Program-made: the position numbers and the translations under genes
In this document: piece after piece, positions 5,128 through 63,728 of the stretch
Layout: each line of letters opens with the position of its first letter
Position numbering within the stretch: the first letter of the stretch is position 1
The notes under the pieces: model-generated
Database searches by the model: none
Told to the model about the DNA's origin: nothing
Seen by the model: the letters and a program-made list of their open reading frames with translations, nothing else
Sequence record: NC_104190.1
Strand: one strand, 5' to 3'
Length of the DNA: 64,000 nucleotides
Source of the DNA: Escherichia phage IME178

Positions 5128-5344
5128 AAAATGGGAAACAAGGAAGTTTCCAGTAAAAGAACGTAAAGTTCCTGTTTACGACACTTCGGAAAAGCTATGT
5201 AGGGTGGTACCGCATAGACTAGCTGGCATCCCTAACATATCCGAGTGGTTACTTAAACAACGGAAAACTAACGTGTCTCTTCGCGTAGGCTTTGAGTTAG
5301 ATAAAGTCTATGCTGAACTTGCTTCTTTGCTCAAGGAATCGTAA
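5111..5344 (+). CDS. hypothetical protein
   Basis: ORF track 5102..5344; ATG at 5111 overlaps the end of the upstream gene. Confidence 0.35.
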   Translation: MTVKNKKWETRKFPVKERKVPVYDTSEKLCRVVPHRLAGIPNISEWLLKQRKTNVSLRVGFELDKVYAELASLLKES

Positions 5345-8844: not shown

Positions 8845-9615
8845 ATGAAAATCGAAATTCCAACACAATGTCCCTCTTGTGGTTCTAAGCTAGATCTTGT
8901 CAATGGACAATTATTCTGTCGTAATAAGTCCAACTGTCCAGCGCAATCAAGTAAGTTAATTGAGAACTTCTGTACAAAAATGAAGTTAAAGGGCTTTGGT
9001 CCAAAAACTATTGAGAAGCTGGAGCTGACGAAGATTTCAGAACTATTTTACCTAACCGAACAAGATTTGGTTAGAGCCGTGGGTAGCAAGGTTGCCGCTA
9101 AGTTAATTAGCGAATTAAATACTAAAGTTCGCGGAGACATTGACTTTGGTTCAGTTCTCGGTTCTTTAGGAATCCCTCTAATAGGAGAGGTTGCAGCAAA
9201 GAAATTATCCCAAAATTGCAACAGCTTCCATGATGTGAAGGCTGACGGCAAGGCTGGAGAAAACTATAAAGCCTGGCTAAATTCCCCACAAGGCAAGGAT
9301 GTTATCGAACTACCGTGGAAATTCTCAACTGGTGCTAAAGCTAAAACCGTCGTTACTGATGATTTAGTTGCCCAGCCAAATGGAATCGCGGTATGTATTA
9401 CCGGGTCTTTGCAAGACTTTGCAAATAGAACGGATGCAACAAACTATTTAGAAGGTCTAGGATATACGGTTAAGAAATCCGTTACCAAAGACGTCAAATA
9501 CCTGATCTGTGAGGATGAATCAAAACGTTCTTCCTCATCTTATAAGAAAGCCGAAACGAATGGGATAGAAATCCTGTCGATTAAAGAACTATTGGAGAAA
9601 AATAATAATGTCTAA
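8845..9615 (+). CDS. NAD-dependent DNA ligase, C-terminal subunit (Zn-finger, HhH, BRCT-like)
   Basis: CPSCGS...CRNKSNCPAQ zinc-finger motif; ORF track 8842..9615, ATG at 8845. Confidence 0.65.
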   Translation: MKIEIPTQCPSCGSKLDLVNGQLFCRNKSNCPAQSSKLIENFCTKMKLKGFGPKTIEKLELTKISELFYLTEQDLVRAVGSKVAAKLISELNTKVRGDIDFGSVLGSLGIPLIGEVAAKKLSQNCNSFHDVKADGKAGENYKAWLNSPQGKDVIELPWKFSTGAKAKTVVTDDLVAQPNGIAVCITGSLQDFANRTDATNYLEGLGYTVKKSVTKDVKYLICEDESKRSSSSYKKAETNGIEILSIKELLEKNNNV

Positions 9616-10375
9616 ACTGAACTGGAACGTAGAAGGTGTAACCGAGTCTCTGAAAGCAAAAGCCACTGCTCTGGGTGTTTCTGTAATCTCTCAAGAACAA
9701 GTAGCTGCTATCGCTGCTGAACTGGCTGCTGAAACTGGCAAAGATGTTACTGCTCGCTCTGTTGGCTCTAAACTGCGTAAAGAAGGTTTTGAAGTACAGA
9801 AAGCTAACGAAGTACAGAAATCCCCGTGGACTCCTGAGCAGGAAGCTGAACTGGTTGATTTCCTGAACGCTCATGCTGGTCAGTATACCTATGCTGAAAT
9901 CGCTGCTGCTGTAGCTGGTGGTCAGTTCGGTGCTAAGCAGGTACAGGGTAAGATTCTGAGCCTGGAAATGACCGCTTCTGTTAAGCCAACCGAAAAAGCT
10001 GCTGCTGTTCGTTCCTTCACTCCGGATGAAGAAACTGATTTTGTTAATCAGGTTGTTGCTGGTGCTACTATTGAAGCTATCGCTGCTCACTTCGGTCGTA
10101 ATATCAAGCAGATCCGTGGTAAAGCTCTGAGCCTGCTTCGTGAAGGTCGTATCGCTGCTATGCCGGTACAGGAAACTTCAAGTGCTAAAACTCGTGAAGA
10201 TTTGTTAGAAGGTCTGGATCTGGTTAACATGACTGTTGCTGAGATCGCTGAGAAAACTGGTAAGTCTGAGCGCGGTGTTAAATCTATGCTGTCTCGTCGT
10301 GGTCTGGTTGCTAAGGACTATGATGGTGCCGCTAAGCGTGCTAAACTGGATGCAAAAGCTGCGGCTGCTGAATAA
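9608..10375 (+). CDS. D5-like abundant early DNA-binding protein with four internal HTH-like repeats
   Basis: 255 aa, strongly E. coli-optimal codons; repeated module (W/F)TP(E/D)..E...V...(TYAEIAAAV/TIEAIAAHF)G....(Q/R)GK.LSL. Confidence 0.55.
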   Translation: MSKLNWNVEGVTESLKAKATALGVSVISQEQVAAIAAELAAETGKDVTARSVGSKLRKEGFEVQKANEVQKSPWTPEQEAELVDFLNAHAGQYTYAEIAAAVAGGQFGAKQVQGKILSLEMTASVKPTEKAAAVRSFTPDEETDFVNQVVAGATIEAIAAHFGRNIKQIRGKALSLLREGRIAAMPVQETSSAKTREDLLEGLDLVNMTVAEIAEKTGKSERGVKSMLSRRGLVAKDYDGAAKRAKLDAKAAAAE

Positions 10376-52538: not shown

Positions 52539-52695
52539 CGCTAATTACCAATCCTCCAAATTTCATAAGATTACACATGGAGGTGTGTCCAGTGGCCCCC
52601 CAGATGAGAATGAGTCTCATTACCGCCCGGTACTTAGCAGGCTAATAGTCACGGCATGTTACCATTACACACCGTGACTATTTCAACTTTAATTA

Positions 52696-53430
52696 TTACG
52701 CAACTTTTAATTTCTCAATATATTGTTGCGGGCTGCAACTATATTCTGCGCGTTCTTCCTCGGTCATACCTTCCCAGCATAATTTCAAACGATCAGCTAG
52801 GAACTGATAATCATTATCATCGTCGAGAGATTCATCAATAAAGGTTTCACCTATCAATGCCACGCCGATTGATAGAATATCATTAACGGCTTGTGCGTCC
52901 AGCGTTTTAAATCCGTATGACGCTGCCGCTGATAACACGCCTTTATGATCATCAATCATTGTAAATTCAGCGTTCGGATATAACTGTTTAAATAACTCAA
53001 AATAATAAGATTTATATACTGCGTCTTTACTATGGTAAATTTCGCTAACCTTATCAGCTTTAAAATATTTATGCAGTGTATCACGGGAAAATACGCGAAT
53101 ATTGCTTTTATCACGACCGCGTAAACCTTGTTTGCGCAGGAAGTAATAATCTGATTTGCTCATTAGTCGAGCGGTACAAATAATGTTTAAAGTATTTGCG
53201 TCATTCATGCACTGGCGCATGTATTCAACTAATGGTAATAATGTATCTTGCATTATTAAATGATGTTTGCAGGCTTCATTTTTATATTTATTTAAATCTA
53301 AATTGCCCTCATTATCAAAGCAAGGCGCTACACGATGGAAAGAATTAACGATAGTGCCGTCTAAATCCCAAATCATAACGCGGGAAATATGCGGGAAGCT
53401 GCGGGAAATGTTCATAATAGCTTTATTCAT
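52696..53430 (-). CDS. dmp: 5'-deoxyribonucleotidase (dmp-like, HAD family)
   Basis: 244 aa with HAD motif I WDLDGT; same length as T5 Dmp; lies in the pre-early block. Confidence 0.7.
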   Translation of the reverse strand: MNKAIMNISRSFPHISRVMIWDLDGTIVNSFHRVAPCFDNEGNLDLNKYKNEACKHHLIMQDTLLPLVEYMRQCMNDANTLNIICTARLMSKSDYYFLRKQGLRGRDKSNIRVFSRDTLHKYFKADKVSEIYHSKDAVYKSYYFELFKQLYPNAEFTMIDDHKGVLSAAASYGFKTLDAQAVNDILSIGVALIGETFIDESLDDDNDYQFLADRLKLCWEGMTEEERAEYSCSPQQYIEKLKVA

Positions 53431-53516
53431 TTGTTACGTTCTCCATTTAAGGGATTAGATTAATTCAATCTAGCCCACTAATTATATTTTATTAGTGGGC
53501 TATGTTCAATTAACTA

Positions 53517-53915
53517 TTAGAACGCCAGACCAAAAGCAAGAGCATCAGCGATAAAACTAACATCCTCACCTGATACATGGGAACGAATACCCGCGCAGGT
53601 ATATACTTTTGCGCTGATCAATTGATCATCGAGGCAAGCGAGGCAAGGCGCGACAACTGCAAAGGCTAGACCGGATTTTACGGCGTCAATGATAATCGTT
53701 TCTTGTTTCACTGTGTCAACATAAACACCTGCGGCCTTAATGTAGCTACTTGCGCGGCCTTGCGCATAGGCAAAGGTAGTAACCTGCAAAGCGTCATTGA
53801 AATCTAACAGATCATCAATAACGTGCCCCGCCTCGACGTGGTAACGTTCACCATTAGAATAAACCAGAACAATGGAAGACTGAGCGCGGTCAAATGGAAT
53901 ATTTTGCTTTTTCAT
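53517..53915 (-). CDS. hypothetical pre-early protein
   Basis: 132-aa ORF flanked by intergenic stem-loops. Confidence 0.45.
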   Translation of the reverse strand: MKKQNIPFDRAQSSIVLVYSNGERYHVEAGHVIDDLLDFNDALQVTTFAYAQGRASSYIKAAGVYVDTVKQETIIIDAVKSGLAFAVVAPCLACLDDQLISAKVYTCAGIRSHVSGEDVSFIADALAFGLAF

Positions 53916-53953
53916 GTTTATAAAACTCCAATTAGTTTAATAATGGATTTAAT

Positions 53954-54211
53954 TTATTTGATAATAATCTGCATCTGGTACGGCGTTAATTCACCGTTTA
54001 CGGGTAAATTATTATCGCTTAGCCACTCATAAAAAGCGCTATCGTCATCAAAAGGAACAACATCATTATCACGGGAATCGACGGAAATAATGCCATCAGT
54101 ATTAGTTTTGGCGGCTAGGATAGGCCCGAAGCTGTAAACTTTATCGGATTCCATTTCATCCGGTGAAATGAATACTTTTTCGTCCAATGTTTTGGGTAAT
54201 GTAACTTTCAT
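53954..54211 (-). CDS. hypothetical pre-early protein (acidic)
   Basis: 85-aa ORF. Confidence 0.45.
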   Translation of the reverse strand: MKVTLPKTLDEKVFISPDEMESDKVYSFGPILAAKTNTDGIISVDSRDNDVVPFDDDSAFYEWLSDNNLPVNGELTPYQMQIIIK

Positions 54212-54267
54212 TTTTTGTGACTCCTGTAATAGCGGCTGTATTTCAAGCCGCTAGGGAAATAATTTAA

Positions 54268-55932
54268 TTACGCAAAGAATTTACCATTCTTAAAGTCAAT
54301 CAAAGTGCGTTGACCGTTTGCATAGGTAATTAAATGCGTTTGCGTCCAGCTTGACGCGCCAACGTTGTAACCCATATCCAGACTACCCGCTACGCCAGCG
54401 GTATATACGCCACCGTAAATGCTGGCGGTATGGGTGTGCCCCGTGTTCAATTTACCCAATTTCTTAAATTGTTTCGGGTTGCCACGGCTGCCGTTAATGC
54501 CGTTGTGACCGTGTACGCCGCATTCAATACCTGCAATCTTGAAAGATTGGTCAGTGGTTAGGAAAATGGCGTTAAACTCACAACCTGCAACCTTGCGCAA
54601 CGCATAATCTAGCACGTTGAAGGTATCGTCATGCTCACCGATTGCCGCATAGATTGCAGCATTCAGGCGGTGATACAGTTCCGCGTTCGCGGGATCGTCT
54701 TTGATGTTAGCATTACGATCATCAAGCCAACGGGATAACGCTAGATCGTGATTTGATTCAACAATGATTGTTTGACTAAAATCACGTTCCATTGACTCCA
54801 GCACGCGACCGGTATCGATAAGGTCATCCAGAACTTTATCACGTCCGGCGGCATACTGTTTCGCTAGGAATACACCCGAAGCGCGGTTATGATGATTGCG
54901 CGATGTAAAATCGTGAACGTCATGGATAAACTGATATTTTGGTTTAAGAATATCAAGCAAGCTATTTTCGCCAGCCCAAGATGCGGCGGCGCACTCTTCA
55001 TCTAATTTTTCGGCGTGAATATCACCATACTGCAAGCCTAAAACATGCCCCGATGTCTCATAGCATCCGGCAGGAGTAGCGCACACATTCAGATCATAAA
55101 ATACCCCGCTTTCGTCCATCGTTTCGAGCTGGCGTACAAAAAATTCCCCGTCCTCGTCGAACTCAACAATCAGCGCACCGAAGTTATGCAGTGCTTCCGC
55201 TTTTTGTCCTGCTTTCTGCTGAATGTAGTTTTTGAGCGTTGCCGTTCCGGTTGAGTACATACGGCGCACTACTTCACCTTTTAAAGCTGGTACGCTTTCA
55301 GCGGTAATTTTAGCGTGACCAATTGCCAGACCTTCAATATTTAAAGCCGTTGCAGTTTCTGCGAATCCAGAAAGCGGATAATCTGCGGTAGGCAAAACAT
55401 TAATTTCAGCCATGAAAGCAAAACGGCGGTTATTTAAAAACACGTTTTTGCTGCAAATATATTTATCAAACGCAGAATCATATTTGATTCCGTCTGCACC
55501 TTCTCCATTTTGGAAGCCGTTTTTATTATAAATATACTTAGAAACAAGCAAATCGGCACCGATATATTCAGCGAATTTTTCCAGACTTGCTAAAAAGTTT
55601 TTATGCGGGAAAGTATTATTCTGAATCGACGTAATAATAAAACGTTTACCCTGTTTTACTTCCCATTGCTCAACCGTACTAGAAACAATCCCAGCCGCTT
55701 CGGGGCGCTCGTCGTTTTTAATGGCTTTTGCTACTTTTGCCGCTTTCGGTTTAGCTGGTTTGTTTGCTTCCAGCCAATCACAAATGGCGGTGGAATGTTT
55801 CGTTGTATCGTAGACTGCTTTTGATATATCGTCGCAGACCTCCAGTTTAGTAGCGCGCAGACGTTTACCATAGAAATTAAAGTCAGCGGCCATTTTCAGA
55901 ATAACGGTTTGTTTTTCTGCGGAAATAATCAT
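54268..55932 (-). CDS. A1: A1-like pre-early protein (metallophosphoesterase-type nuclease)
   Basis: 554 aa (T5 A1 is 556 aa); metallophosphatase motifs GDIHAE, GVHGHNG, GHTHT. Confidence 0.7.
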   Translation of the reverse strand: MIISAEKQTVILKMAADFNFYGKRLRATKLEVCDDISKAVYDTTKHSTAICDWLEANKPAKPKAAKVAKAIKNDERPEAAGIVSSTVEQWEVKQGKRFIITSIQNNTFPHKNFLASLEKFAEYIGADLLVSKYIYNKNGFQNGEGADGIKYDSAFDKYICSKNVFLNNRRFAFMAEINVLPTADYPLSGFAETATALNIEGLAIGHAKITAESVPALKGEVVRRMYSTGTATLKNYIQQKAGQKAEALHNFGALIVEFDEDGEFFVRQLETMDESGVFYDLNVCATPAGCYETSGHVLGLQYGDIHAEKLDEECAAASWAGENSLLDILKPKYQFIHDVHDFTSRNHHNRASGVFLAKQYAAGRDKVLDDLIDTGRVLESMERDFSQTIIVESNHDLALSRWLDDRNANIKDDPANAELYHRLNAAIYAAIGEHDDTFNVLDYALRKVAGCEFNAIFLTTDQSFKIAGIECGVHGHNGINGSRGNPKQFKKLGKLNTGHTHTASIYGGVYTAGVAGSLDMGYNVGASSWTQTHLITYANGQRTLIDFKNGKFFA

Positions 55933-56022
55933 AGTAATAAAACTCCATTAAAGGGATTAGATTAATAATGGCAATATTGCCAAATATAACGCCTCAAATA
56001 ATAGGCGTTATAATTTGCAACA

Positions 56023-56220
56023 TTAATTTAAAGGCACTAGGCTAGAACTAACACCACAAGCAACGGCAGCGATAAAACAAAGCAGACCTAAACGTTTTGC
56101 TAACTTAGATTTACGTTTAAAATAATACGAATCTAAATCATTTTGAAAATAAGCGAACAATAATGAGGCCGCCATAATAAACAAGCCTAGAATCAAAGAT
56201 TCAGTAGGGAAGAAAACCAT
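56023..56220 (-). CDS. small two-helix membrane protein
   Basis: 65 aa, two hydrophobic segments. Confidence 0.45.
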   Translation of the reverse strand: MVFFPTESLILGLFIMAASLLFAYFQNDLDSYYFKRKSKLAKRLGLLCFIAAVACGVSSSLVPLN

Positions 56221-56310
56221 TTTTAAAACTCCTGATTTAAGGGAAGAAAATAACTATCGCTAAACAGTTATATTATTGCCCCCTCACTAGAAGGGGGCAA
56301 GGTATAACTA

Positions 56311-56718
56311 TTATTCGCCTGCGGCTTGTTTTACTTCATCAGCAACGCCTAACAATTGCGCTACTGCGTCCAGCGTTTCAAGTTTTGCACTTTCAAGGCT
56401 TGCCAGATCATCGGCGTCTTTGATAATACCGGAATCGATAGCGTGTTTTGCAATTACTCGCACATAGTGAGCTTTACGCACAGAGCTACCGCCGCCAACT
56501 TTACGCGGCTTATCGCTTTTTTGATAGGCTTTTGCACTGGTCAATTTTGAGCGAACGGATACAGGGGAAGCCGCGCCTACTGCTTTTGCAATCTCTTTCA
56601 GGCCGTCGCTATTTGCGAAATCTAAACCGTTTTCATTGATTAACTGCTGGTACATAGAAACAGCTTTCTGAGTGTTTTCTTCGTTCCATGCGAATTTTGC
56701 GGTTTTAGCGTTAGTCAT
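56311..56718 (-). CDS. A2: A2-like pre-early DNA-binding protein
   Basis: 135 aa, adjacent to A1 as in T5; paralogous to the ORF at 6480..6890. Confidence 0.55.
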   Translation of the reverse strand: MTNAKTAKFAWNEENTQKAVSMYQQLINENGLDFANSDGLKEIAKAVGAASPVSVRSKLTSAKAYQKSDKPRKVGGGSSVRKAHYVRVIAKHAIDSGIIKDADDLASLESAKLETLDAVAQLLGVADEVKQAAGE

Positions 56719-56816
56719 GATAAAAACTCCTATTAGTTTAATTTAAGGGATTAGATTAACTTAATGTTAATCGTTATATCCCCCTGAAATAAGGGGGATA
56801 TAAAGTTAACACTAAA

Positions 56817-57068
56817 TTACAACACAGCTTCCCATTTTTCGTTGCGTTGAACAACCTTTACAACATCGCCGGATTTAACGCGAACGCTAAAAACGGGCTT
56901 GCCGTTGTTACTGCGTTCATTTTCAGCATATACCGCGTCGATTGTATCGAATGGCATAAGCGCCGCACCTTTAATACGTTCGGCCTTTCCGGTTAATTCA
57001 TCCGTTTTAGTAACGAAAGGAATAAAGACGGATTGACCAATTTTAGGCGCGGTAATAACGTTTTGCAT
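56817..57068 (-). CDS. hypothetical pre-early protein
   Basis: 83-aa ORF followed by stem-loop and leader motif. Confidence 0.45.
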   Translation of the reverse strand: MQNVITAPKIGQSVFIPFVTKTDELTGKAERIKGAALMPFDTIDAVYAENERSNNGKPVFSVRVKSGDVVKVVQRNEKWEAVL

Positions 57069-57829
57069 AATATAGACTCCAGTTATTTGATGGATTGTTC
57101 CGCATTACCTGCTAGAAGGTAGCAGGTAATAAGTAACAATCCGCTCGCCAGTTTAATCAATTTAAAGAACTCCACGTAGGCCGCTATATCCCGTTAGGGG
57201 GCGGGGCGCATTATGGTAAGCACCGACCGTCAAATTTTATCAAGTTATCGCTCTTATCGAACTGGGTACATCTTAAAACCTATCGGCTAGGTTGTCAAAT
57301 AATTTTTTGCAGTTTTTTATGATTTTCTTTCAAGTCAATCATAATGTTTCGCCAGATCATTTCCAGACCTTGCTGGCGACCTTTCTTGTACTGCGTGAAT
57401 CTATATTTTACTGATCTTTGAGCTACTGTCAACAAATTTTTTTGTTTTGCTATCTAGTGCCTTAATAGGCTTGCCAGTGATCAAAAGCGTTTGTTTCATA
57501 TCGTCGATTCCTTATAATGAATAAGTTTACCGCCGATAGGCTTTAAGATATACCCAATTTTTTAAAGAGCGCGGCGGTAAACTTTCCGCCGTGTAGTTCG
57601 TCATTGCCGCCCTACGAGATAAATAATAACAAACAACGAAAAAAGGCGCAACCTTATTTTTGTAAAGAAATGTAAAGACACGATCCACCGAACGGCGTGC
57701 GGCGACGGCCTAAAATTAAAAGAAACGGGCGCGCGAATACCACAAAACAGAGCAAATAGGCAAGTAATTTTTTCATTTATATTTGCTTTGCCCTACTTGA
57801 CAAAATCTAAAAAGCTCGTGGCAGCGATA

Positions 57830-58320
57830 AACGGCTTATCCCCTTATGATGGGATGGCTAAAAACTTTATTGCGTTCTGGAGCGTTTTAGACGCATTCTA
57901 GCCCTGTTGATAACTTATCCCCAAAAGCAAAAATGAAATTTTCCTAGTTATCCACTTGACTTTTATTTTCCAGTGGATAACTACTTATTTTATGAAATAA
58001 ATTAATTGACTTTTGTTTGCTAGTATGTATCGGAAAGATAGCAGACTAATAATTGCTAGAATGATAATCATGCTGGTGGATTGTAACAGCGTAAACTATT
58101 AGCAGACTATTAATCACGGAAAATCTCATTAGCTAACTAACTATTTCATGTTATATAATATACATATAAATTAATGAGAAATAATAACTACAAGAAATCA
58201 TCTAGCTAAGTGAGAACCACTATCATTTAAGTTATCCACAACGTTATCTACAGCACAAAATAACTTGACACGATAGGCGGCGATATAAGGACTTTTGCAC
58301 AGACTTATCCACAGGTTATT
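57830..58320. promoter_or_regulatory. non-coding region with DnaA-box cluster and inverted repeats
   Basis: Exact TTATCCACA at 58232-58240 and 58305-58313; inverted TTATCCACT pair at 57948-57956/57972-57980; TTATCCCC half-boxes nearby. Confidence 0.55.
58131..58159 (+). promoter_or_regulatory. early-family promoter-like element (TATAAT at 58154-58159, conserved ATAAATTAATGAGAAA leader)
   Basis: Matches the conserved -10/leader motif; weak -35; about 450 bp upstream of 58608. Confidence 0.35.
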
Positions 58321-58607
58321 CCACTGTATAAATATACAGGGTAAAAAGGTAGTGTTAACAACTGCAATCAATTTTAAGCGGCCTAAATCGCATTCTAACG
58401 AGCTAAACGCTGCAAGGTAATAGTAAAGTAAAGCCTCAATGTTGCGGCCTGGTGGCTTCACCGTGTTTTGCTCTTTACTACACCGCTGCGCGGTTATCAT
58501 AAAAGTAGGCGCTAGGCAAGGAATAAAAAACATTTTCTTTTTTCTTGCCCCTAGTGAACAAATATCTATATCATTCACCTACCGATTAACGAGGGGGACA
58601 AAATAAA

Positions 58608-59612
58608 ATGTCTACTGTAAGAATTGCAGTACCAGCAAACGCCACTATTATTAAAGGCAGTTTGCGCAATCTGTTAGATGGTAGTAGCGTGGCAAGCGTA
58701 CAGCATACCGCTACTATTATCGAAAAGATTCATGATAGAATTTTAGACGATGAGGATACTCATTATTCAGTTGAAGATTTCACACAATTACTAGACCAGA
58801 AAAGGGCGCTAGTAATTTTCAACCGTGATTATCACATTTTCCGCAATCAACGTGGAAGTGATATTGATTTTATCATTGTTGGTTATAGTGAGTCTAATAG
58901 TGGTTACATTGCGCGATTATATAACGTGCGAGAAAAAGAGCAAGTAACAGCAACAAAAGTAAGTAATATCAGGACTGATAGTGTCGGATCGTTATTAACT
59001 AGCATTTGGCGTGAACTATCAGCTAATTACAAAAGTGCTGATAGTGATGTAATTTCTACAACTGGCGTGTTATGTTTTGAACGCGCTAGTGGCAACATGT
59101 TGATCCCTAGTGATTATTTAGAGTATGGGAATGAATCAAACGTTGCAAATGCTGGATTTACACTAAAACCAGTTGACAATATTGAAAAACATGCTGTAAA
59201 TTCTAACACTCAAAGCGTTAATACTCAAACTACTGAAAACAAAGGAAAAAACACCATGACCAAGATTGCTAACATCGTTGCCGCTAATAAATCCGCTGTT
59301 GTAAATGCTGCAAAACTGGAAGCGGGTAAAATTGCATTAACTCAAATCACGAAAGTAGCGGCTAAAAAAGCACCGTTCATGATCAAAGGTTATATCGATA
59401 CGCCTATTGGTCGGGTAGTGATTGCTAACCTGCTGAGTGTAGCGGTTGACCAGTACGCACCGACTAACCAAAAAGCGAAAGCGGTAGCAGGGGCGGCTAT
59501 GGAAGCGGCAATGCTGGAAATGGTGCAAAGTTTTAACATCGCTGAAATGATTGATGAAATGGTGAAAGGTATTGATATTTCTACTTTTACCACTAGCACC
59601 GAAATCGAGTAA
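58608..59612 (+). CDS. hypothetical protein
   Basis: 334-aa ORF with RBS GAGGGGGA; no recognisable motif. Confidence 0.55.
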   Translation: MSTVRIAVPANATIIKGSLRNLLDGSSVASVQHTATIIEKIHDRILDDEDTHYSVEDFTQLLDQKRALVIFNRDYHIFRNQRGSDIDFIIVGYSESNSGYIARLYNVREKEQVTATKVSNIRTDSVGSLLTSIWRELSANYKSADSDVISTTGVLCFERASGNMLIPSDYLEYGNESNVANAGFTLKPVDNIEKHAVNSNTQSVNTQTTENKGKNTMTKIANIVAANKSAVVNAAKLEAGKIALTQITKVAAKKAPFMIKGYIDTPIGRVVIANLLSVAVDQYAPTNQKAKAVAGAAMEAAMLEMVQSFNIAEMIDEMVKGIDISTFTTSTEIE

Positions 59613-59677
59613 TAATATTTAGTGGGGATTATTTCCCCACTTTACTATTCCCTTGTTAATTAATAGGAGGCTAATAA

Positions 59678-60172
59678 ATGGCTGAGGAAAAATACGGCTT
59701 CTCGCTAGGAGAAGTGAGCACGGCTAAACATGATATGATCATTTTAGTCGATTGTCATACTGGCTATTGCGGGGAAGGGAATACCGAGGAATATTTTGTT
59801 CCTGCTGGTACGGATCTAGACGCTTTAGCTCACGAAATGGCTATTGATAATGCTTCTCGTTTTGGTAGCGATGGATATGAGGATGAGGAAACGGGCGAAT
59901 GGTATGAGAATGAAAACGTATATGCAAGCCTTTATCATTATCAGTTAAGTAAATCCGGCACATATGTAAACGGCGGCGATCCTATTAATTCCGTCATGAA
60001 ATTAATTATTAAATATGGCGGCGTCGAGATAGTTGGTAACAAAGCGGTAATATACGCAAATCGACTAAAACAGCTTGTTTATATTCCTGATAGTACCCGA
60101 TGGGAGGAATACGCTGTTTTGCATGACGAATTGAAACGATGTTTCAATGTTGAATCCTTACAAGTAGTCTAA
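59678..60172 (+). CDS. hypothetical protein
   Basis: 164-aa ORF, RBS TAGGAGG. Confidence 0.55.
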   Translation: MAEEKYGFSLGEVSTAKHDMIILVDCHTGYCGEGNTEEYFVPAGTDLDALAHEMAIDNASRFGSDGYEDEETGEWYENENVYASLYHYQLSKSGTYVNGGDPINSVMKLIIKYGGVEIVGNKAVIYANRLKQLVYIPDSTRWEEYAVLHDELKRCFNVESLQVV

Positions 60173-60276
60173 TGTAAAGTTTTGTAAAGGTCGCCTTTTA
60201 TGGCGGCCTTTTTTGTTATAATGCCTTTACACCAAAACGGTGGATTGAAAATTTCCCAAAAATTTGGAGGCTTAAA

Positions 60277-60507
60277 ATGGTTGCTTATTCTTCTGCTAGT
60301 CATCTGTTCACCGCTCAAGGTTGGGTGTCCAATCGCGTTGTTATCCATGAGATGGTGCAGGAGTTCGGTATTGCTAAAACTTATAATACCATTCAGGAGC
60401 TTTATAACGCCGATAAAATCGATCAGCAAACGGCTGGCTTTTTACTGGATACCCTGAAAGCGGAACACTGTACCAAAAAACAAGCTGCAAAAATTGTTTT
60501 AATGTAA
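60277..60507 (+). CDS. hypothetical protein
   Basis: 76-aa ORF, RBS GGAGG. Confidence 0.5.
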   Translation: MVAYSSASHLFTAQGWVSNRVVIHEMVQEFGIAKTYNTIQELYNADKIDQQTAGFLLDTLKAEHCTKKQAAKIVLM

Positions 60508-60553
60508 TTAGTAACGGGGGATATTATATCCCCCACTGACTAGGAGAATAAAA

Positions 60554-60703
60554 ATGATTATTTTTCGAGCTATTCTGGCGGGTATCTTGGGCGCTATTTT
60601 ATCGTTGTTTGCAATAGCTTTCGGTGTTCACGCCGTTATTATCGGCGCTGGCATTGCTGCGTTTTCTTATCTGCTGGGCTGCATGACTAGTAAAGGAGAA
60701 TAA
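60554..60703 (+). CDS. small hydrophobic membrane protein (49 aa)
   Basis: MIIFRAILAGILGAILSLFAIAFGVHAVIIGAGIAAFSYLLGCMTSKGE; RBS TAGGAGAA; below the ORF-track cutoff. Confidence 0.45.
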   Translation: MIIFRAILAGILGAILSLFAIAFGVHAVIIGAGIAAFSYLLGCMTSKGE

Positions 60704-60705
60704 AA

Positions 60706-60918
60706 ATGATTCGTAACGTTTCCCTTGCGCGTTCGAAAGGTTTTAAGCTGGTGGATGTTAACACGTTCGAGCGGGAAGATTGTAAAATCGAATATGTAGC
60801 ACGTAACAAAAATGCCTTTCGTGTTACTGAGAAAAAATTCGACAAGCGCGGCAACGTGATAGCTGAAACAGTTAAACACTTTGCCACCTTTTACGCTGCG
60901 TTTCGTGGGGTATTATAA
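60706..60918 (+). CDS. hypothetical protein
   Basis: 70-aa ORF, RBS AAAGGAGAA. Confidence 0.5.
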   Translation: MIRNVSLARSKGFKLVDVNTFEREDCKIEYVARNKNAFRVTEKKFDKRGNVIAETVKHFATFYAAFRGVL

Positions 60919-60919
60919 A

Positions 60920-61264
60920 ATGGTTATTTATGAGGGCAATCGTTTTGTTGCTAATTGCCGTCCGGCATTATTAGCAAACTACTTAAACCAGCTTTCACCA
61001 GCTTATAAGGGCGTTATTAATATTTATGAGGGCAAGGCGCATTATAAAGTCAATGCGGTTGTTGCCCGTGAACTAGCGTTTCAATTTTTGACCTTTGCAT
61101 CTTGCGACGTTCAGGTTATGGGTGAAGCATTAATTGCAGAAAATGATGATGATTTTATTAATATTTTCCGCAAGGTATGTACCGAGCGCCTGATAATGAA
61201 AGGCGCGTATATTCAATCCACTGCGGATAGTATTGAAACAGCGTTTCGAAAGGTGGCGCAATGA
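60920..61264 (+). CDS. hypothetical protein
   Basis: ATG 60920 in frame with track ORF 60881..61264. Confidence 0.5.
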   Translation: MVIYEGNRFVANCRPALLANYLNQLSPAYKGVINIYEGKAHYKVNAVVARELAFQFLTFASCDVQVMGEALIAENDDDFINIFRKVCTERLIMKGAYIQSTADSIETAFRKVAQ

Positions 61265-61476
61265 GCGAAATTACTTGGGGTACACTGCTGAAGGTTAAAC
61301 GGGTAAAATTAACACAAGATTTATGGGGAGTAGGTAAAACAGGGGATGTATTCAATGTGTTTAAAGACTCACATCATAGGTTTATAAGAAGAAATAACAA
61401 TATGGGCACAGCGTTTTATTTAATTGATTTAATCAAGTTATATGGTGAGGATATTTTCGAGCTAGAATATGAATAA
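61261..61476 (+). CDS. hypothetical protein
   Basis: 71-aa ORF with ATGA overlap. Confidence 0.45.
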   Translation: MSEITWGTLLKVKRVKLTQDLWGVGKTGDVFNVFKDSHHRFIRRNNNMGTAFYLIDLIKLYGEDIFELEYE

Positions 61477-61609
61477 CTATATAATTTTTTTGAGGTATTG
61501 CAATGAGATTATATATTTTCGTTGGTAATGTTGAGGCAGCTAATGATTCCGCTGGTGGCGATAACGTTCGCCGCTATTGACAAAAATATATTTACTAGGA
61601 GTTATTATT

Positions 61610-61804
61610 ATGGTTACGCTGATTTGCATTAAAGCCGATGGCGACACGATAGCACGGAAAGGGCAAAAGTATAAAGCCCAAAAAGATCGACTACTCAAAA
61701 CAGTTGAGCGTTACACAGTGCCCGATCTCAAATATTCAGTAGTTGGGCGCGAGGGGATTCTAAGGGCGACACTTGAGAACGCTATTTTTGAGATAGTCAA
61801 CTAA
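61610..61804 (+). CDS. hypothetical protein
   Basis: ATG 61610 after AGGAG (track 61577..61804). Confidence 0.45.
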   Translation: MVTLICIKADGDTIARKGQKYKAQKDRLLKTVERYTVPDLKYSVVGREGILRATLENAIFEIVN

Positions 61805-61819
61805 TAACGGGGCGTTACT

Positions 61820-62014
61820 ATGAGCAATAAAATTGTTGTAACCAAAATCAGTACAATGGTTGATGTTTTTTACGTGCCCGATACGCCGGAAAACCGACAA
61901 GCGGTCGAGCGTGGTGAGTATGATAAGGTGATTTATGATCACGATGGTTATTATCAGCATTTAGTGGATTCCTACGGGGAGGAGGAGAAGATCACGCATC
62001 GACTACCCGACTAA
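61820..62014 (+). CDS. hypothetical protein
   Basis: 64-aa ORF. Confidence 0.45.
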   Translation: MSNKIVVTKISTMVDVFYVPDTPENRQAVERGEYDKVIYDHDGYYQHLVDSYGEEEKITHRLPD

Positions 62015-62291
62015 TAATCACGGGGCGCAACTATCAGGAAGTGCCCCCAATTGTCAAATGAGAATGCTTCTCATTTGACCGCGCCCGCGATGGTTAGCCT
62101 GCTAATGGTTAGGGTGTTACGTGTCGCCTTGTGTGATCGTTAGCGAGCTAACTAATTTCTAAGCCTCCTCCAATTTTGCCCCTGTTTTAGTATCCCCAAC
62201 AAAATTAAACGCGTTAGAATGCGATCTAGGACGTTTTAGCGGTATATTAGAATTATTCACTGCGTAGGAATACTGTATATTTGTACAGTAG

Positions 62292-62381
62292 GATAAGCTG
62301 TTGATAAGTCTGTTGATAACGCTTCAAAATGGCTAGGATTTTGTCAAGTCAAATCGTGCTGTTGATAAGTCTGTGGATAAC
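62292..62381. promoter_or_regulatory. duplicated GCTGTTGATAAGTCTGT(T/G)GATAAC element with exact DnaA box on the reverse strand
   Basis: Two copies about 60 bp apart; TGTGGATAA at 62372-62380. Confidence 0.5.
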
Positions 62382-62614
62382 TTAAATAATAGTGTTTCTC
62401 ACTTCCATTCTTGAATGATTCTCATTATCATTCGCATTTCACTATCTAACTAATAATCATTTCACTTTTTAAATGAGAATCGTTTCACTTCCTGAATAAT
62501 TTTTATTTCACTTTCTAAATACAAATCATTATCATTCGCATTCCGCTTTTTAAATGAGAATGATTCTCATTTTTATTCGCATTCAGGCGAGCAGGGCAAT
62601 TGCCCTGCGCTTTT

Positions 62615-63264
62615 GTGCAAAACCGACATTTGCCCCCATGGATTACGCGTGGGCGTGTATGTGCGAATCCGACAATTTTTGGTAGTGTGCAAATCCGACC
62701 CGAAAAATTTTCATAGTGTGCGAATCCGACAATGAATTTTCCTAAAAACTCCAGCAATCCGATGCTGCGCATCAATCCTGTGGAATTAGCTAGAATATGT
62801 GCAAATCCGACATGGGTTTATTTGTGCGAATCCGACAAGATTTTTGTGACTTCGATGAGAGGGTGTGTGATTGTGTGGGTTTGGGGAGAAGTTGAGAGAG
62901 CGAGAGAAAATTAGGGGAACTGCGAGAGGGGCGCATGTTTGGTGCGGAGCACCCGATTTGCGGGGGTTTTGGAGAAGAGTTGAGAAGATTTGGGTTAATT
63001 TGAGATAAGTGCAGATAAAGTAAAATTTTATTAGCTAAATTGGGTTAATTTGAGATAAGTGCAGATAAAGTAAAATTTTATTAGCTAAATGGGGCAAAAT
63101 AGCTTGACAAGTGAAAATTTCTGTGGCTCTAAAAACTCAGGCAATCATGGGCCTTCGGCCCGAAATAATGCTGCCATTTTCAGGAGATTATATATTCCTA
63201 AAAACTTAGGCAATTGTGCAAATCCGACCATAAATTTCTAGAAACACAATGTGCAAATCCGACA
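62615..63264. repeat. array of eight irregularly spaced copies of GTGC(A/G)AA(T/A)CCGAC(A/C)
   Basis: Copies at 62615, 62661, 62687, 62718, 62799, 62824, 63216, 63251; an 18-bp perfect palindrome GCAGGGCAATTGCCCTGC at 62591-62608. Confidence 0.6.
62991..63090. repeat. perfect 50-bp tandem duplication
   Basis: TGGGTTAATTTGAGATAAGTGCAGATAAAGTAAAATTTTATTAGCTAAAT occurs twice back to back. Confidence 0.7.
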
Positions 63265-63728
63265 GTAATTTCTGGAAATGTGTTTTCAAAAAATGTCTCC
63301 TAGAAATAACCGCCCTCCCTATAACCGCCCTGTATTAAACCGCCTAGTATATGTTCCTAGAAACTTAGGAGAACCGCCCACTAGAAGTGTGATATCTCGT
63401 GAGAACTCTGGAGTTTCTAGGAAAGTGTTGTGCCATCCTAGCAGATGAGCGGCAACAGGTGTATCATCTTGAACACAGATATTGCCTTTAAATATTATAA
63501 AATAAATTAAAAGTAAAGTAGCCCCCATTACATGTGTGCTTACTCGTGGGGCGCGTGATTAATTACGTAAGTCCTCGACTGTCATACCTCTGTTGCTCGG
63601 TCGCAAAGAGTTAACGAAGTCTCGTGTAATAATCATCGCCCCTAGAGTTCAAAACAAGAGTTGTTTTTAATCTATGTGATTATTATAACATGTGCCGCAA
63701 TGAGTTGTCAAGAAGATTTTGTTAACGT

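What the first reader, a model, noticed from the sequence alone, without database searches (positions are those of the whole stretch)
52560..62575. Diverged direct repeats with AATGAGAAT/ATTCTCATT palindromes about 9.5 kb apart flank the pre-early genes
An ~85-bp segment at 52590-52680 (GTGGCCCCCCAGATGAGAATGAGTCTCATTACCGCCCGG...AGCAGGCTAAT) has a recognisable diverged counterpart at 62030-62120 (GTGCCCCCAATTGTCAAATGAGAATGCTTCTCATTTGACCGCGCCCGCG...AGCCTGCTAAT), and a third perfect 21-bp palindrome lies at 62552-62572. The spacing is close to the ~10.1 kb T5 terminal repeat. They could be protein-binding sites, recombination scars or boundary elements of the first-step-transfer DNA.
Basis: seen in the sequence. 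Interest (0 to 1): 0.55.

Follow-up and report, generated by a model that had tools for sequence, protein, structure and literature searches.

The report
Fur-box-like palindromes in T5-like first-step DNA
Three copies of a short inverted repeat in the terminal repeat of this T5-like phage are real and conserved: one lies 18 bp from the genome's left end, two lie at the known 'injection stop' repeat region, and their sequence matches the operator of the host iron repressor Fur, which gives a testable lead on how T5-type phages pause DNA injection.

Summary
ATGAGAAT-N3-TCTCAT occurs three times in 64 kb (52604, 62058, 62554; 0.01 expected). The first two copies also share, in the same order, a GC block and a second palindrome, TTAGC-NN-GCTAA.

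The window is a T5-like phage assembled with one collapsed terminal repeat (DTR), 52586-63129. The copies are not the DTR ends. Copy 1 starts 18 nt inside the left physical terminus. Copies 2 and 3 lie 1.05 and 0.56 kb inside the right end, in the non-coding 'injection stop' (iss) region. Copy 3 is the homologue of T5 palindrome I.

T5 itself lacks copies 1 and 2, but Vibrio phages with about 40% Dmp identity keep them.

A Fur weight matrix built from published iron boxes scores the three copies at 16, 12 and 18 bits. It finds 11 sites of at least 12 bits in the DTR (0.24 expected) and none in the other 52.6 kb. Twenty relatives show the same pattern.

Best reading: these are operator-type sites, most likely for host Fur, next to the known DnaA boxes. 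The main rival is the phage A2 protein. Binding is untested.

The parts
52586..52587 (.). Left physical terminus of the genome, which is the left end of the single collapsed DTR copy
   Evidence: T5 AY587007 starts TGTCCACTGCC, matching window TGTCCAGTGGCC at 52586. Sw2, whose ends were set by PhageTerm, starts one base later. Seven terminus-anchored records agree.
52602..52622 (.). pal1-L: AGATGAGAATGAGTCTCATTA. Arms ATGAGA and TCTCAT, centre at 52612. It starts 17-18 nt from the terminus.
   Evidence: Fur matrix score 16.0 bits at 52606. The core RATGAGAA-NN-AGTCTCATTACCGCCC is conserved in Vibrio phages VF16 and Bennett.
52623..52630 (.). GC block CCGCCCGG following pal1-L
   Evidence: Read directly from the sequence. 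ACCGCCC is invariant in 24 of 24 left-end copies, including the Vibrio phages.
52634..52645 (.). pal2-L: TTAGCAGGCTAA
   Evidence: One of only 3 TTAGCNNGCTAA sites in the window.
52647..52679 (-). Terminator hairpin of dmp (AGTCACGG...CCGTGACT); not part of the repeat
   Evidence: Read directly from the sequence. It corresponds in position to the T5 terminator annotated at 69-105.
52696..53430 (-). dmp, the first gene of the DTR. It contains a conserved internal Fur-box-like pair at 52800 and 52806, including the perfect 7-1-7 motif TGATAATCATTATCA.
58180..58339 (.). IRC-spacer-IRD with DnaA boxes, the inverted partner of 62273-62432
   Evidence: Inverted repeat I1. It corresponds in position and content (DnaA boxes) to the inverted repeats annotated in T5.
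62022..62047 (+). Hairpin GGGGCGC...GTGCCCC after the last pre-early ORF (61820-62014). It lacks a T-run in this phage.
   Evidence: Phages without the cassette have a canonical terminator at this position.
62048..62162 (.). Pre-iss cassette of about 115 bp, present or absent among relatives. It contains pal1-R1, the GC block and two pal2 copies.
   Evidence: It is present in most T5-like loci examined and absent from T5, L011, L013, L021, L027, L036 and L037.
62054..62078 (.). pal1-R1: TCAAATGAGAATGCTTCTCATTTGA, with 11-bp arms and centre at 62066
   Evidence: Fur matrix score 12.1 bits. It shares AATGCTTCTCATTT (14 nt) with the 17.0-bit site in the fepB-entC intergenic region (known to be Fur-regulated; my own knowledge) of E. 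coli K-12.
62079..62089 (.). GC block CCGCGCCCGCG
   Evidence: The same kind of block follows the homologous palindrome in Vibrio VF16 (CGGCGCGCCCG) and a pal1-like site at 5241 in Aeromonas TS3 (GGCCGCGCC).
62094..62105 (.). pal2-R1: TTAGCCTGCTAA
62140..62151 (.). pal2-R2: TTAGCGAGCTAA. The arms are fixed and the central dinucleotide varies freely among relatives.
62273..62432 (.). IRD'-spacer-IRC' with paired DnaA boxes (62297-62320 and 62358-62381)
   Evidence: I1, D20. Described for T5.
62411..62580 (.). Array of about 23-bp units, equivalent to T5 direct repeat C. It carries Fur-box-like sites at 62411/62417, 62515/62521 and 62550/62556.
   Evidence: (D1). T5 annotation.
62552..62572 (.). 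pal1-R2: AAATGAGAATGATTCTCATTT, a perfect 21-bp palindrome and the homologue of T5 palindrome I (9612-9631)
   Evidence: Fur matrix score 18.1 bits.
62591..62610 (.). Palindrome J equivalent plus the CTGCGC motif of the T5 7.9% major nick
62613..63269 (+). TGTGCAAATCCGAC repeats (T5 direct repeat D), which run across the DTR right end
   Evidence: (D2, D3).
63129..63129 (.). Right end of the DTR (...GAAAATTTCTGTGGCTC)
   Evidence: Eight complete T5-like genomes end with this sequence. The T5 left terminal repeat ends at the homologous base.

Best explanation
The three elements are copies of one conserved operator-type inverted repeat, AATGAGA-N5-TCTCATT (called pal1 here). It belongs to the non-coding architecture of the first-step-transfer (FST) DNA of T5-family phages.

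Shown:
- Copy 1 lies at a fixed 17-18 nt from the left genome end, the end that enters the cell first.
- Copy 2 lies between the last pre-early ORF and the DnaA-box inverted repeat.
- Copy 3 is the last unit of the repeat array homologous to T5 direct repeat C and palindrome I. In T5, the computed FST shear point (9618) falls inside that palindrome.
- By sequence these are Fur boxes, and Fur-box-like sequences are strongly and specifically concentrated in the terminal repeat.

Inferred mechanism: when the FST DNA enters, pre-existing host Fur-Fe2+ dimers occupy these sites. No phage protein synthesis is needed. Fur acts together with DnaA on the adjoining DnaA boxes. The result is a nucleoprotein complex at the right edge of the FST DNA, with a smaller one at its left end. 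This complex contributes to holding, organising or insulating the DNA during the injection pause, until A1 and A2 allow second-step transfer.

The left copy is probably also embedded in a terminus-specific element (AGTCTCATTACCGCCC) whose function relates to the DNA end.
For: Reality and position.

Protein site rather than hairpin:
- Among 19 distinct cassettes, the arms change without compensation (GATAAT/ATTCTC, GAGAAT/ATTATC, GAGAGT/ATTCTC).
- The centre flips between G and C.
- The pal2 centres vary freely.

Fur match:
- pal1-R2 differs from the 19-bp Vibrio Fur consensus AATGATAATAATTATCATT at one symmetric arm position (T6 to G, A14 to C) and at the central base (A10 to G).
- Both arm variants occur in published iron boxes, GATAATGAGAATCATTATT and TGTAATGATAACCATTCTC.
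- A matrix built from 10 of those boxes scores the copies at 16.0, 12.1 and 18.1 bits. The 11 listed boxes themselves score 8-26.
- The top-scoring sites of the whole window are all in the DTR. There are 11 sites of at least 12 bits, against 0.24 expected (0 of 300 dinucleotide shuffles reach this). The other 52.6 kb has none, at equal G+C content.
- None of 1000 column-permuted palindromic matrices reaches 11; the maximum is 7.
- In 80 kb of E. coli K-12, the same threshold finds only 4 sites. All four are in the fepD-entS and fepB-entC intergenic regions, which are known Fur-regulated promoter regions (my own knowledge). The best-scoring pair upstream of fhuA scores only 10.8.
- Sites come in pairs offset by 6 nt, as described for true Fur clusters.
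- In 20 of 21 relatives, each DTR has 6-12 such sites. The flanking late DNA, available for 19 of them, has none. Several sites are canonical, such as GTAAATGATAATCATTATC at 22.6 bits.

Support for a host factor in general:
- In Providencia phage PSTCR5 and Vibrio phage VF16, the same slot after the DnaA boxes holds 9 and 5 tandem octamers matching the MetJ met-box consensus AGACGTCT.
- The putative recognition helix of A2 (xVRSKL) is conserved across genera whose arrays differ.
- FST arrest is known not to need phage protein synthesis.
Against: - No binding data exist, and nothing here tests binding.
- The left-end copy is conserved in Vibrio phages in a form that scores poorly as a Fur box (9.0 and 9.7 bits). 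What is conserved there is AGTCTCATTACCGCCC and the distance to the terminus, which suggests a terminus-related protein.
- The GC block beside copies 1 and 2 is not a Fur feature.
- T5 itself lacks copies 1 and 2, so they are not essential to two-step injection.
- The repeats of Klebsiella phage GZ8 (AAATGCGAATCATTCTCATTCG) score below 11 bits.
- The sites are not at evident promoters.
- A cytoplasmic repressor bound to DNA that has already entered has no obvious way of stopping the DNA behind it.
- The matrix rests on 10 boxes taken from a secondary list.
- The strongest conserved site, in dmp, may be a by-product of the coded peptide DDDNDY.
Confidence: 0.45

Rival explanations
1. The palindromes are binding sites for a phage-encoded dimeric DNA-binding protein. 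The obvious candidate is the essential pre-early protein A2, which is needed for second-step transfer. A2 would bind next to the stop region, and at the left end, to release or guide the DNA. On this view the likeness to Fur boxes is coincidental.
For: - A2 is a purified DNA-binding dimer whose target and mechanism are unknown.
- A2 and its putative recognition helix are conserved from E. coli to Vibrio phages. So are pal1-L and pal1-R1.
- A GC block accompanies both copies, which Fur would not need.
Against: - A phage protein would have to share the specificity of Fur. That includes the canonical GATAAT boxes scattered through non-homologous ORFs of different phages.
- Where the Fur-like array is absent, it is replaced by met-box arrays although the A2 helix is unchanged.
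- T5, whose A2 is 99% identical, lacks copies 1 and 2.
Confidence: 0.28
2. The left copy only (52602-52630) is part of the recognition or positioning site for the terminase, or for another end-processing or end-holding protein, that makes or holds the left genome end. Copy 2 would then be an old duplicate of that element.
For: - The distance from the terminus is fixed at 17-18 nt in 7 terminus-anchored genomes, two of which had their ends set by PhageTerm.
- The 16-nt block AGTCTCATTACCGCCC is identical between enterobacterial and Vibrio phages that share only about 40% Dmp identity.
- T5 keeps a diverged form of it, AGTCTGCTAACCGCC.
Against: - The palindromic left arm is absent from T5 and about 11 other genomes that keep the same cut-site sequence.
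- No comparable element lies at the right terminus.
- This reading does not explain copies 2 and 3.
Confidence: 0.2
3. They act as nucleic-acid structures: transcription terminators, RNA hairpins or DNA cruciforms.
For: As single-stranded DNA the three palindromes can fold, at -3.9, -10.8 and -6.2 kcal/mol with z-scores of -3.9 to -6.9. Copy 2 sits where relatives without the cassette have the terminator of the rightward pre-early operon.
Against: - None is followed by a T-run, and the terminator scan does not call them.
- Arm changes among relatives are not compensated.
- Copy 1 lies beyond the dmp terminator, next to the DNA end.
- There is no Rfam match.
Confidence: 0.05
4. They are boundary markers or recombination scars of the terminal repeat.
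For: The spacing is of the same order as the repeat length. Both modules are gained or lost among relatives, and one hybrid left end exists (L034/L035).
Against: - The repeat ends are at 52586 and 63129. The right copies lie 1,051 and 557 bp inside.
- Presence of copy 1 and of copy 2 is uncorrelated. My tally gives about 10, 3, 7 and 4 genomes in the four classes.
- Both modules are older than the split between enterobacterial and Vibrio phages.
Confidence: 0.03

Closest known systems
T5 'Repeat Region 3' / injection stop signal repeats (palindromes E-J and direct repeat C; Heusterspreute 1987, Wang 2005, Davison 2015 and the 2020 preprint 10.1101/866236)
   Same: Copy 3 is the homologue of T5 palindrome I. 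The order of elements is the same as annotated in T5: IRD'-spacer-IRC' with DnaA boxes, then the repeat-C array, palindrome J, the nick motif and the D repeats.
   Different: T5 lacks copies 1 and 2; its palindrome C is a plain GC terminator. Neither the T5 annotation nor the Davison preprint describes a copy at the left terminus or its fixed distance to the end. The preprint does not mention Fur.
Fur box (E. coli GATAATGATAATCATTATC; 7-1-7 TGATAAT-N-ATTATCA; Vibrio AATGATAATAATTATCATT)
   Same: The inverted-repeat geometry is the same, as are the outer AATGA/TCATT and inner AAT/ATT bases. Scores fall within the range of known boxes, sites pair at 6-nt offsets, and stretches of 14-15 nt are shared with the high-scoring fepB-entC site and with a published iron box.
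   Different: There is a symmetric T-to-G change (GAGAAT/ATTCTC). The sites lie in a phage non-coding array and beside a DNA end, not over a promoter. A GC block is attached. Binding is untested.
DnaA-box cluster of the T5 iss (Davison model: host DnaA holds the FST DNA)
   Same: This too is a cluster of operator sequences for an abundant host DNA-binding protein. It lies 30 bp from the Fur-like array and is conserved across the family.
   Different: It involves a different protein and motif. The DnaA model has not been tested experimentally.
Terminase recognition sites beside genome ends (lambda cosB, T7 pac; recalled from memory)
   Same: Copy 1 is a conserved sequence at a fixed short distance from the cut.
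   Different: The palindromic half can be lost, as in T5. No terminase binding data exist for any T5-like phage as far as I could find.

Membership tests
Fur box | Match to the 19-bp consensus or weight matrix within the range of known operators | tested here: met
   Scores are 16.0, 12.1 and 18.1 bits, against 8-26 for the 11 published boxes. The best-scoring pair upstream of fhuA reaches 10.8 and the sites in the fep/ent intergenic regions reach 15-17.
Fur box | 7-1-7 inverted heptamers TGATAAT-N-ATTATCA | tested here: met
   pal1-R2 is TGAGAAT-G-ATTCTCA, matching 12 of 14 arm bases. pal1-R1 and pal1-L match less well in the inner bases.
Fur box | Clusters of overlapping sites offset by 6 bp | tested here: met
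   Pairs occur at 52800/52806, 62411/62417, 62515/62521 and 62550/62556.
Fur box | Overlaps the promoter of a regulated gene | tested here: not met
   The consensus scan places only weak promoter-like matches in the region, and none is centred on the three copies. Copy 1 abuts the DNA end.
Fur box | Bound by Fur with Fe2+ or Mn2+ | not testable with these tools
   This needs gel-shift, footprinting, Fur titration or ChIP experiments.
T5 iss Repeat Region 3 repeats | Lies in the non-coding stretch between the last pre-early ORF and the DTR right end, in the T5 order of elements | tested here: met
   Copies 2 and 3 meet this; copy 1 does not.
T5 iss Repeat Region 3 repeats | Sequence homology to an annotated T5 palindrome | tested here: met
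   Copy 3 against T5 9613 ATGAGATTGATTCTCAT shows 1 mismatch in the same flanking context. Copy 2 has no T5 counterpart.
Terminal-repeat boundary element | Coincides with both ends of the DTR | tested here: not met
   The DTR spans 52586-63129. The copies lie 17 nt inside the left end and 1,051 and 557 bp inside the right end.
Terminase (cos/pac-type) recognition site | Fixed distance from the cut and conserved in all relatives that share the cut site | tested here: inconclusive
   The distance is fixed at 17-18 nt in 7 genomes. The left arm is missing from T5-type left ends, which keep only AGTCTGCTAACCGCC.
Rho-independent terminator | GC-rich hairpin followed by a T-run | tested here: not met
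   The stems are AT-rich, no T-run follows, and the scan does not call them.

The most novel reading that the evidence does not exclude
The injection-stop region of T5-family phages may be a platform of operator arrays for abundant, cofactor-loaded host repressors. It would combine DnaA boxes with a genus-specific second array: Fur boxes in the enterobacterial T5-like phages and the one Aeromonas phage examined, and MetJ met boxes in the Providencia and Vibrio phages examined. On this reading it is these pre-existing host proteins, not phage proteins, that hold or organise the first 8% of the genome during the pause. The pal1 copies at the left end and before the array would be outposts of the same system.
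Probability: 0.3. Interest if true: 0.85.

Novelty: new variant of a known kind. Interest (0 to 1): 0.6.

Why it matters
Why T5 DNA transfer halts after 8% has been open since the 1960s. Papers from 2023 and 2026 still describe the stop region only as 'rich in repeats and palindromes', with no functional tests.

Identifying the repeats as Fur-type operators, and as MetJ-type operators in other genera, next to DnaA boxes turns the problem into simple experiments: Fur and MetJ gel shifts, infection of fur or metJ hosts, and site mutants.

The fixed-distance element at the left terminus, conserved across the family, is also a concrete candidate for the unknown end-recognition signal of these phages.

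If Fur does not bind, the result remains a better map of a known repeat region.

Tried and rejected
- **Window-wide scan with the flank alone.** The right flank of copy 1 finds 58.04-58.12 kb rather than 62.09 kb as its best partner. Only the local, order-preserving test is significant.
- **Known RNA families.** Rfam at E up to 1 across 52.3-63.5 kb gives only three sub-threshold matches elsewhere.
- **Terminator or hairpin reading.** Rejected.
- **DTR-boundary reading.** Rejected by the mapped ends.
- **pork29 annotation.** Its annotated repeat starts 16 nt before dmp and would leave copy 1 outside the repeat. I judged this annotation imprecise, because T5, Sw2 and five other records start at the TGTCCAG site.
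- **Pfam on ten pre-early ORFs.** No DNA-binding domain was found and A2 has no hit in the local copy. A PDB sequence search with an A2 profile found nothing.
- **Zur box.** Compared by eye; it fits worse than the Fur box.
- **Literature not reachable.** Davison 2015 and Rabsch 2007 could not be retrieved. The supplement of Chen 2007 with footprinted Fur sites is not held, so the matrix uses a secondary list of boxes.
- **Literature link between Fur and T5.** None found.

Full report
**What the window is.** The stretch 52-63 kb matches the terminal-repeat (pre-early) region of several hundred T5-like phages at 85-94% identity. The genes are dmp (52696-53430, minus strand), A1 (54268-55932) and A2 (56311-56718).

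T5 (AY587007) begins TGTCCACTGCC, and the window has TGTCCAGTGGCC at 52586. Phage Sw2, whose repeat was set with PhageTerm, starts one base later. Five further records start at the same site.

Eight complete genomes end with ...GAAAATTTCTGTGGCTC, which is window 63113-63129, and the T5 repeat ends at the homologous base.

The window therefore holds one collapsed copy of a 10,544-bp direct terminal repeat (DTR), 52586-63129. Late genes lie to its left and early genes to its right.

**Check of the observation.** ATGAGAATNNNTCTCAT occurs at 52604, 62058 and 62554 and nowhere else (0.01 expected). The third copy is a perfect 21-bp palindrome.

The first two copies share more than the palindrome:
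- a C-run before it;
- a GC block after it (CCGCCCGG and CCGCGCCCGCG);
- a second palindrome, TTAGC-NN-GCTAA, 4-5 nt further on.

That second motif has only three sites in 64 kb, and all three are at these two places (0.13 expected).

The module as a whole aligns far better than shuffles do (35 against a mean of 13.9; 0 of 2000 reach it). The flanks alone give p of about 0.005. The similarity covers about 55-65 bp rather than 85 bp, and a window-wide search with the flank alone does not find the partner.

The spacings are 9,454 and 9,950 bp, not the repeat length.

**Anatomy.**
- Copy 1 (pal1-L, 52602-52622) starts 17-18 nt inside the left physical end. It is followed by the GC block, pal2, the dmp terminator hairpin and dmp.
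- Copy 2 (pal1-R1, 62054-62078) lies in a cassette of about 115 bp, directly after the hairpin that follows the last pre-early ORF. It is about 200 bp before the inverted repeat IRD'-spacer-IRC' with its DnaA boxes (62273-62432, partner at 58180-58339).
- Copy 3 (pal1-R2, 62552-62572) is the last unit of an array with a period of about 23 bp (D1). It corresponds to T5 direct repeat C and palindrome I.

To the right of copy 3 follow the palindrome J and CTGCGC nick motif, then the TGTGCAAATCCGAC repeats, then the repeat end.

In T5, the calculated shear point of the first-step-transfer (FST) DNA is 9618. That falls inside palindrome I (9612-9631).

This region is the long-described, functionally untested 'injection stop signal' (iss) region.

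**Relatives.** I compared about 25 distinct T5-like genomes.

The left end comes in two forms:
- a form like this window, with pal1-L;
- a T5 form that keeps only AGTCTGCTAACCGCC;
- plus one hybrid of the two (L034/L035).

The pre-iss cassette is a clean presence-or-absence difference. T5 and six others have a plain terminator there instead. The two polymorphisms are not correlated, and T5 has neither copy.

Both modules are nevertheless old. Vibrio phage VF16 (ends set by PhageTerm; Dmp about 40% identical) starts GTGTACCCCCATAGTCAAATGAGAACTAGTCTCATTACCGCCCCC. It also has, after its last pre-early terminator, AGCAAATGATAATGAGTCTCATTTCGGCGCGCCCG, followed by the palindrome D equivalent and DnaA boxes. 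Vibrio phage Bennett has the left copy too.

In seven terminus-anchored genomes the left palindrome starts at nt 17-18.

**Protein site or structure.** Several facts are typical of dimer-binding sites:
- Among 19 distinct cassettes the arms change without compensation (GATAAT opposite ATTCTC, GAGAAT opposite ATTATC).
- The central base flips between G and C.
- The two central bases of pal2 vary freely while its arms stay fixed.

The hairpins are weak and lack T-runs, and nothing matches Rfam.

**Which protein.** pal1-R2 (AATGAGAATGATTCTCATT) differs from the palindromic Fur consensus AATGATAATAATTATCATT at one symmetric arm position (T6 to G, A14 to C) and at the central base (A10 to G). Both arm variants, GAGAAT and ATTCTC, occur in published iron boxes.

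I built a weight matrix from ten of those boxes, leaving out the one that contains GAGAAT. The results were:
- The three copies score 16.0, 12.1 and 18.1 bits. The 11 listed boxes score 8-26.
- The DTR holds 11 sites of at least 12 bits, against 0.24 expected (0 of 300 dinucleotide shuffles reach this).
- The other 52.6 kb holds none, at the same G+C content.
- None of 1000 column-permuted palindromic versions of the matrix reaches 11; the maximum is 7.

As a control I scanned 80 kb of E. coli K-12. It gives four sites of at least 12 bits, all in the fepD-entS and fepB-entC intergenic regions, which are known Fur-regulated promoter regions (my own knowledge). The best-scoring pair upstream of fhuA scores 10.8. 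The 17.0-bit fepB-entC site shares 14 consecutive bases (AATGCTTCTCATTT) with pal1-R1.

The phage sites pair at 6-nt offsets, as reported for real Fur clusters.

In 20 of 21 related loci, each DTR has 6-12 such sites, and the 9.9 kb of flanking late DNA available for 19 of them has none. Some sites are canonical (22.6 bits), and some lie in ORFs not shared between phages.

I found no paper that links Fur with the T5 stop region.

**Support from other genera.** In Providencia phage PSTCR5, the slot between the DnaA boxes and the nick motif holds nine tandem octamers. Eight of the nine match AGACGTCT, the MetJ met-box consensus, at 7 of 8 positions. There are none elsewhere in 22.7 kb. Vibrio phage VF16 has five such octamers in the same slot.

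Aeromonas phage TS3 again has Fur-like sites there.

Two unrelated motifs in the same slot, each matching the operator of a well-known host repressor in that repressor's typical arrangement, argue for recruitment of host factors.

**The main rival.** A2 is an essential pre-early DNA-binding dimer with no known target. Its model has a helical N-terminal domain with weak matches to the GcrA and MogR DNA-binding domains and to Myb-like domains. It could therefore bind AT-rich palindromes.

Its putative recognition helix (VRSKL) is conserved between genera whose arrays differ.

**Caveats for copy 1.** In the Vibrio phages it scores only 9-10 bits as a Fur box. What is conserved there is AGTCTCATTACCGCCC and the distance to the end. 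Copy 1 is therefore likely to serve, alone or in addition, a function at the DNA end, such as terminase positioning or holding the end.

**Verdict.**
- The finding is real.
- Its position is best described as 'both edges of the first-step DNA', not 'the ends of the repeat'.
- One copy is already known from T5, and the region is a known riddle.
- New here are the terminus-proximal copy at a fixed distance, its conservation across the family, and the Fur-operator identity of the whole motif family.
- The binding protein is inferred, not shown. I put host Fur at about 0.45, a phage protein such as A2 at about 0.3, and a terminus-specific role for copy 1 at about 0.2, which could hold alongside either.

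Noticed in passing
L050 (Providencia phage PSTCR5) 2016-2087; L047 (Vibrio phage VF16) 6990-7029: Nine and five tandem octamers matching the MetJ met-box consensus AGACGTCT (mostly 7 of 8 positions in PSTCR5; 4-7 of 8 in VF16). They lie between the DnaA boxes and the CTGCGC nick motif, which is the slot that holds the Fur-like array in T5-like phages. There are none elsewhere in these loci.
   Followed up: partly
window 52800-52824 (inside dmp): A perfect Fur 7-1-7 motif, TGATAATCATTATCA, with 19.6- and 17.6-bit sites offset by 6 nt, in the part of dmp that codes DDDNDYQ. It is conserved in every relative down to 61% Dmp identity. It could be a by-product of the peptide or a real site.
   Followed up: partly
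window 62990-63089: A perfect 50-bp tandem duplication (TTGGGTTAATTTGAGATAAGTGCAGATAAAGTAAAATTTTATTAGCTAAA, two copies) 40 bp inside the DTR right end. T5 and the other genomes examined have one copy. It may be a recent duplication or an assembly effect at the collapsed repeat.
   Followed up: no
window 52634, 62094, 62140: The palindrome TTAGC-NN-GCTAA has fixed arms and a free centre. It resembles the KorB operator TTTAGC(G/C)GCTAAA of IncP plasmids (recalled from memory), but its centre is one base longer. No candidate binding protein was identified.
   Followed up: no
window 53445-53469, 55947-55971, 56741-56765 (minus strand): A conserved leader, TTAATCTAATCCCTTAAAT, lies just upstream of the Shine-Dalgarno sequences of dmp, A1 and A2, with a partial copy before the 65-aa ORF. 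It could be a shared translational or RNA-processing signal of the leftward pre-early genes.
   Followed up: partly
window 52540-52700 compared with L005-L041: Two alternative left-end cassettes exist among T5-like phages: with pal1, or the T5 type without it. One hybrid (L034/L035) is joined at CCGCCCG. The sequence just outside the terminus (CATAAGATTACACATGGAGGTG) is conserved in both types.
   Followed up: partly
window 62613-63269; L046, L047, L050: The TGTGCAAATCCGAC repeats (T5 direct repeat D) straddle the DTR right end. They are recognisable in Klebsiella, Providencia and Vibrio relatives (GTGCAAATCCGAT and similar), so they are at least as conserved as the DnaA boxes. Their function is unknown.
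   Followed up: no
[not shown]
   Followed up: partly
window 60114-60220: A sub-threshold Rfam match to the Pseudomonas rnk leader (34.6 bits against a gathering score of 55; E = 0.008). It spans the end of the 164-aa ORF and the intergenic space; probably chance.
   Followed up: no
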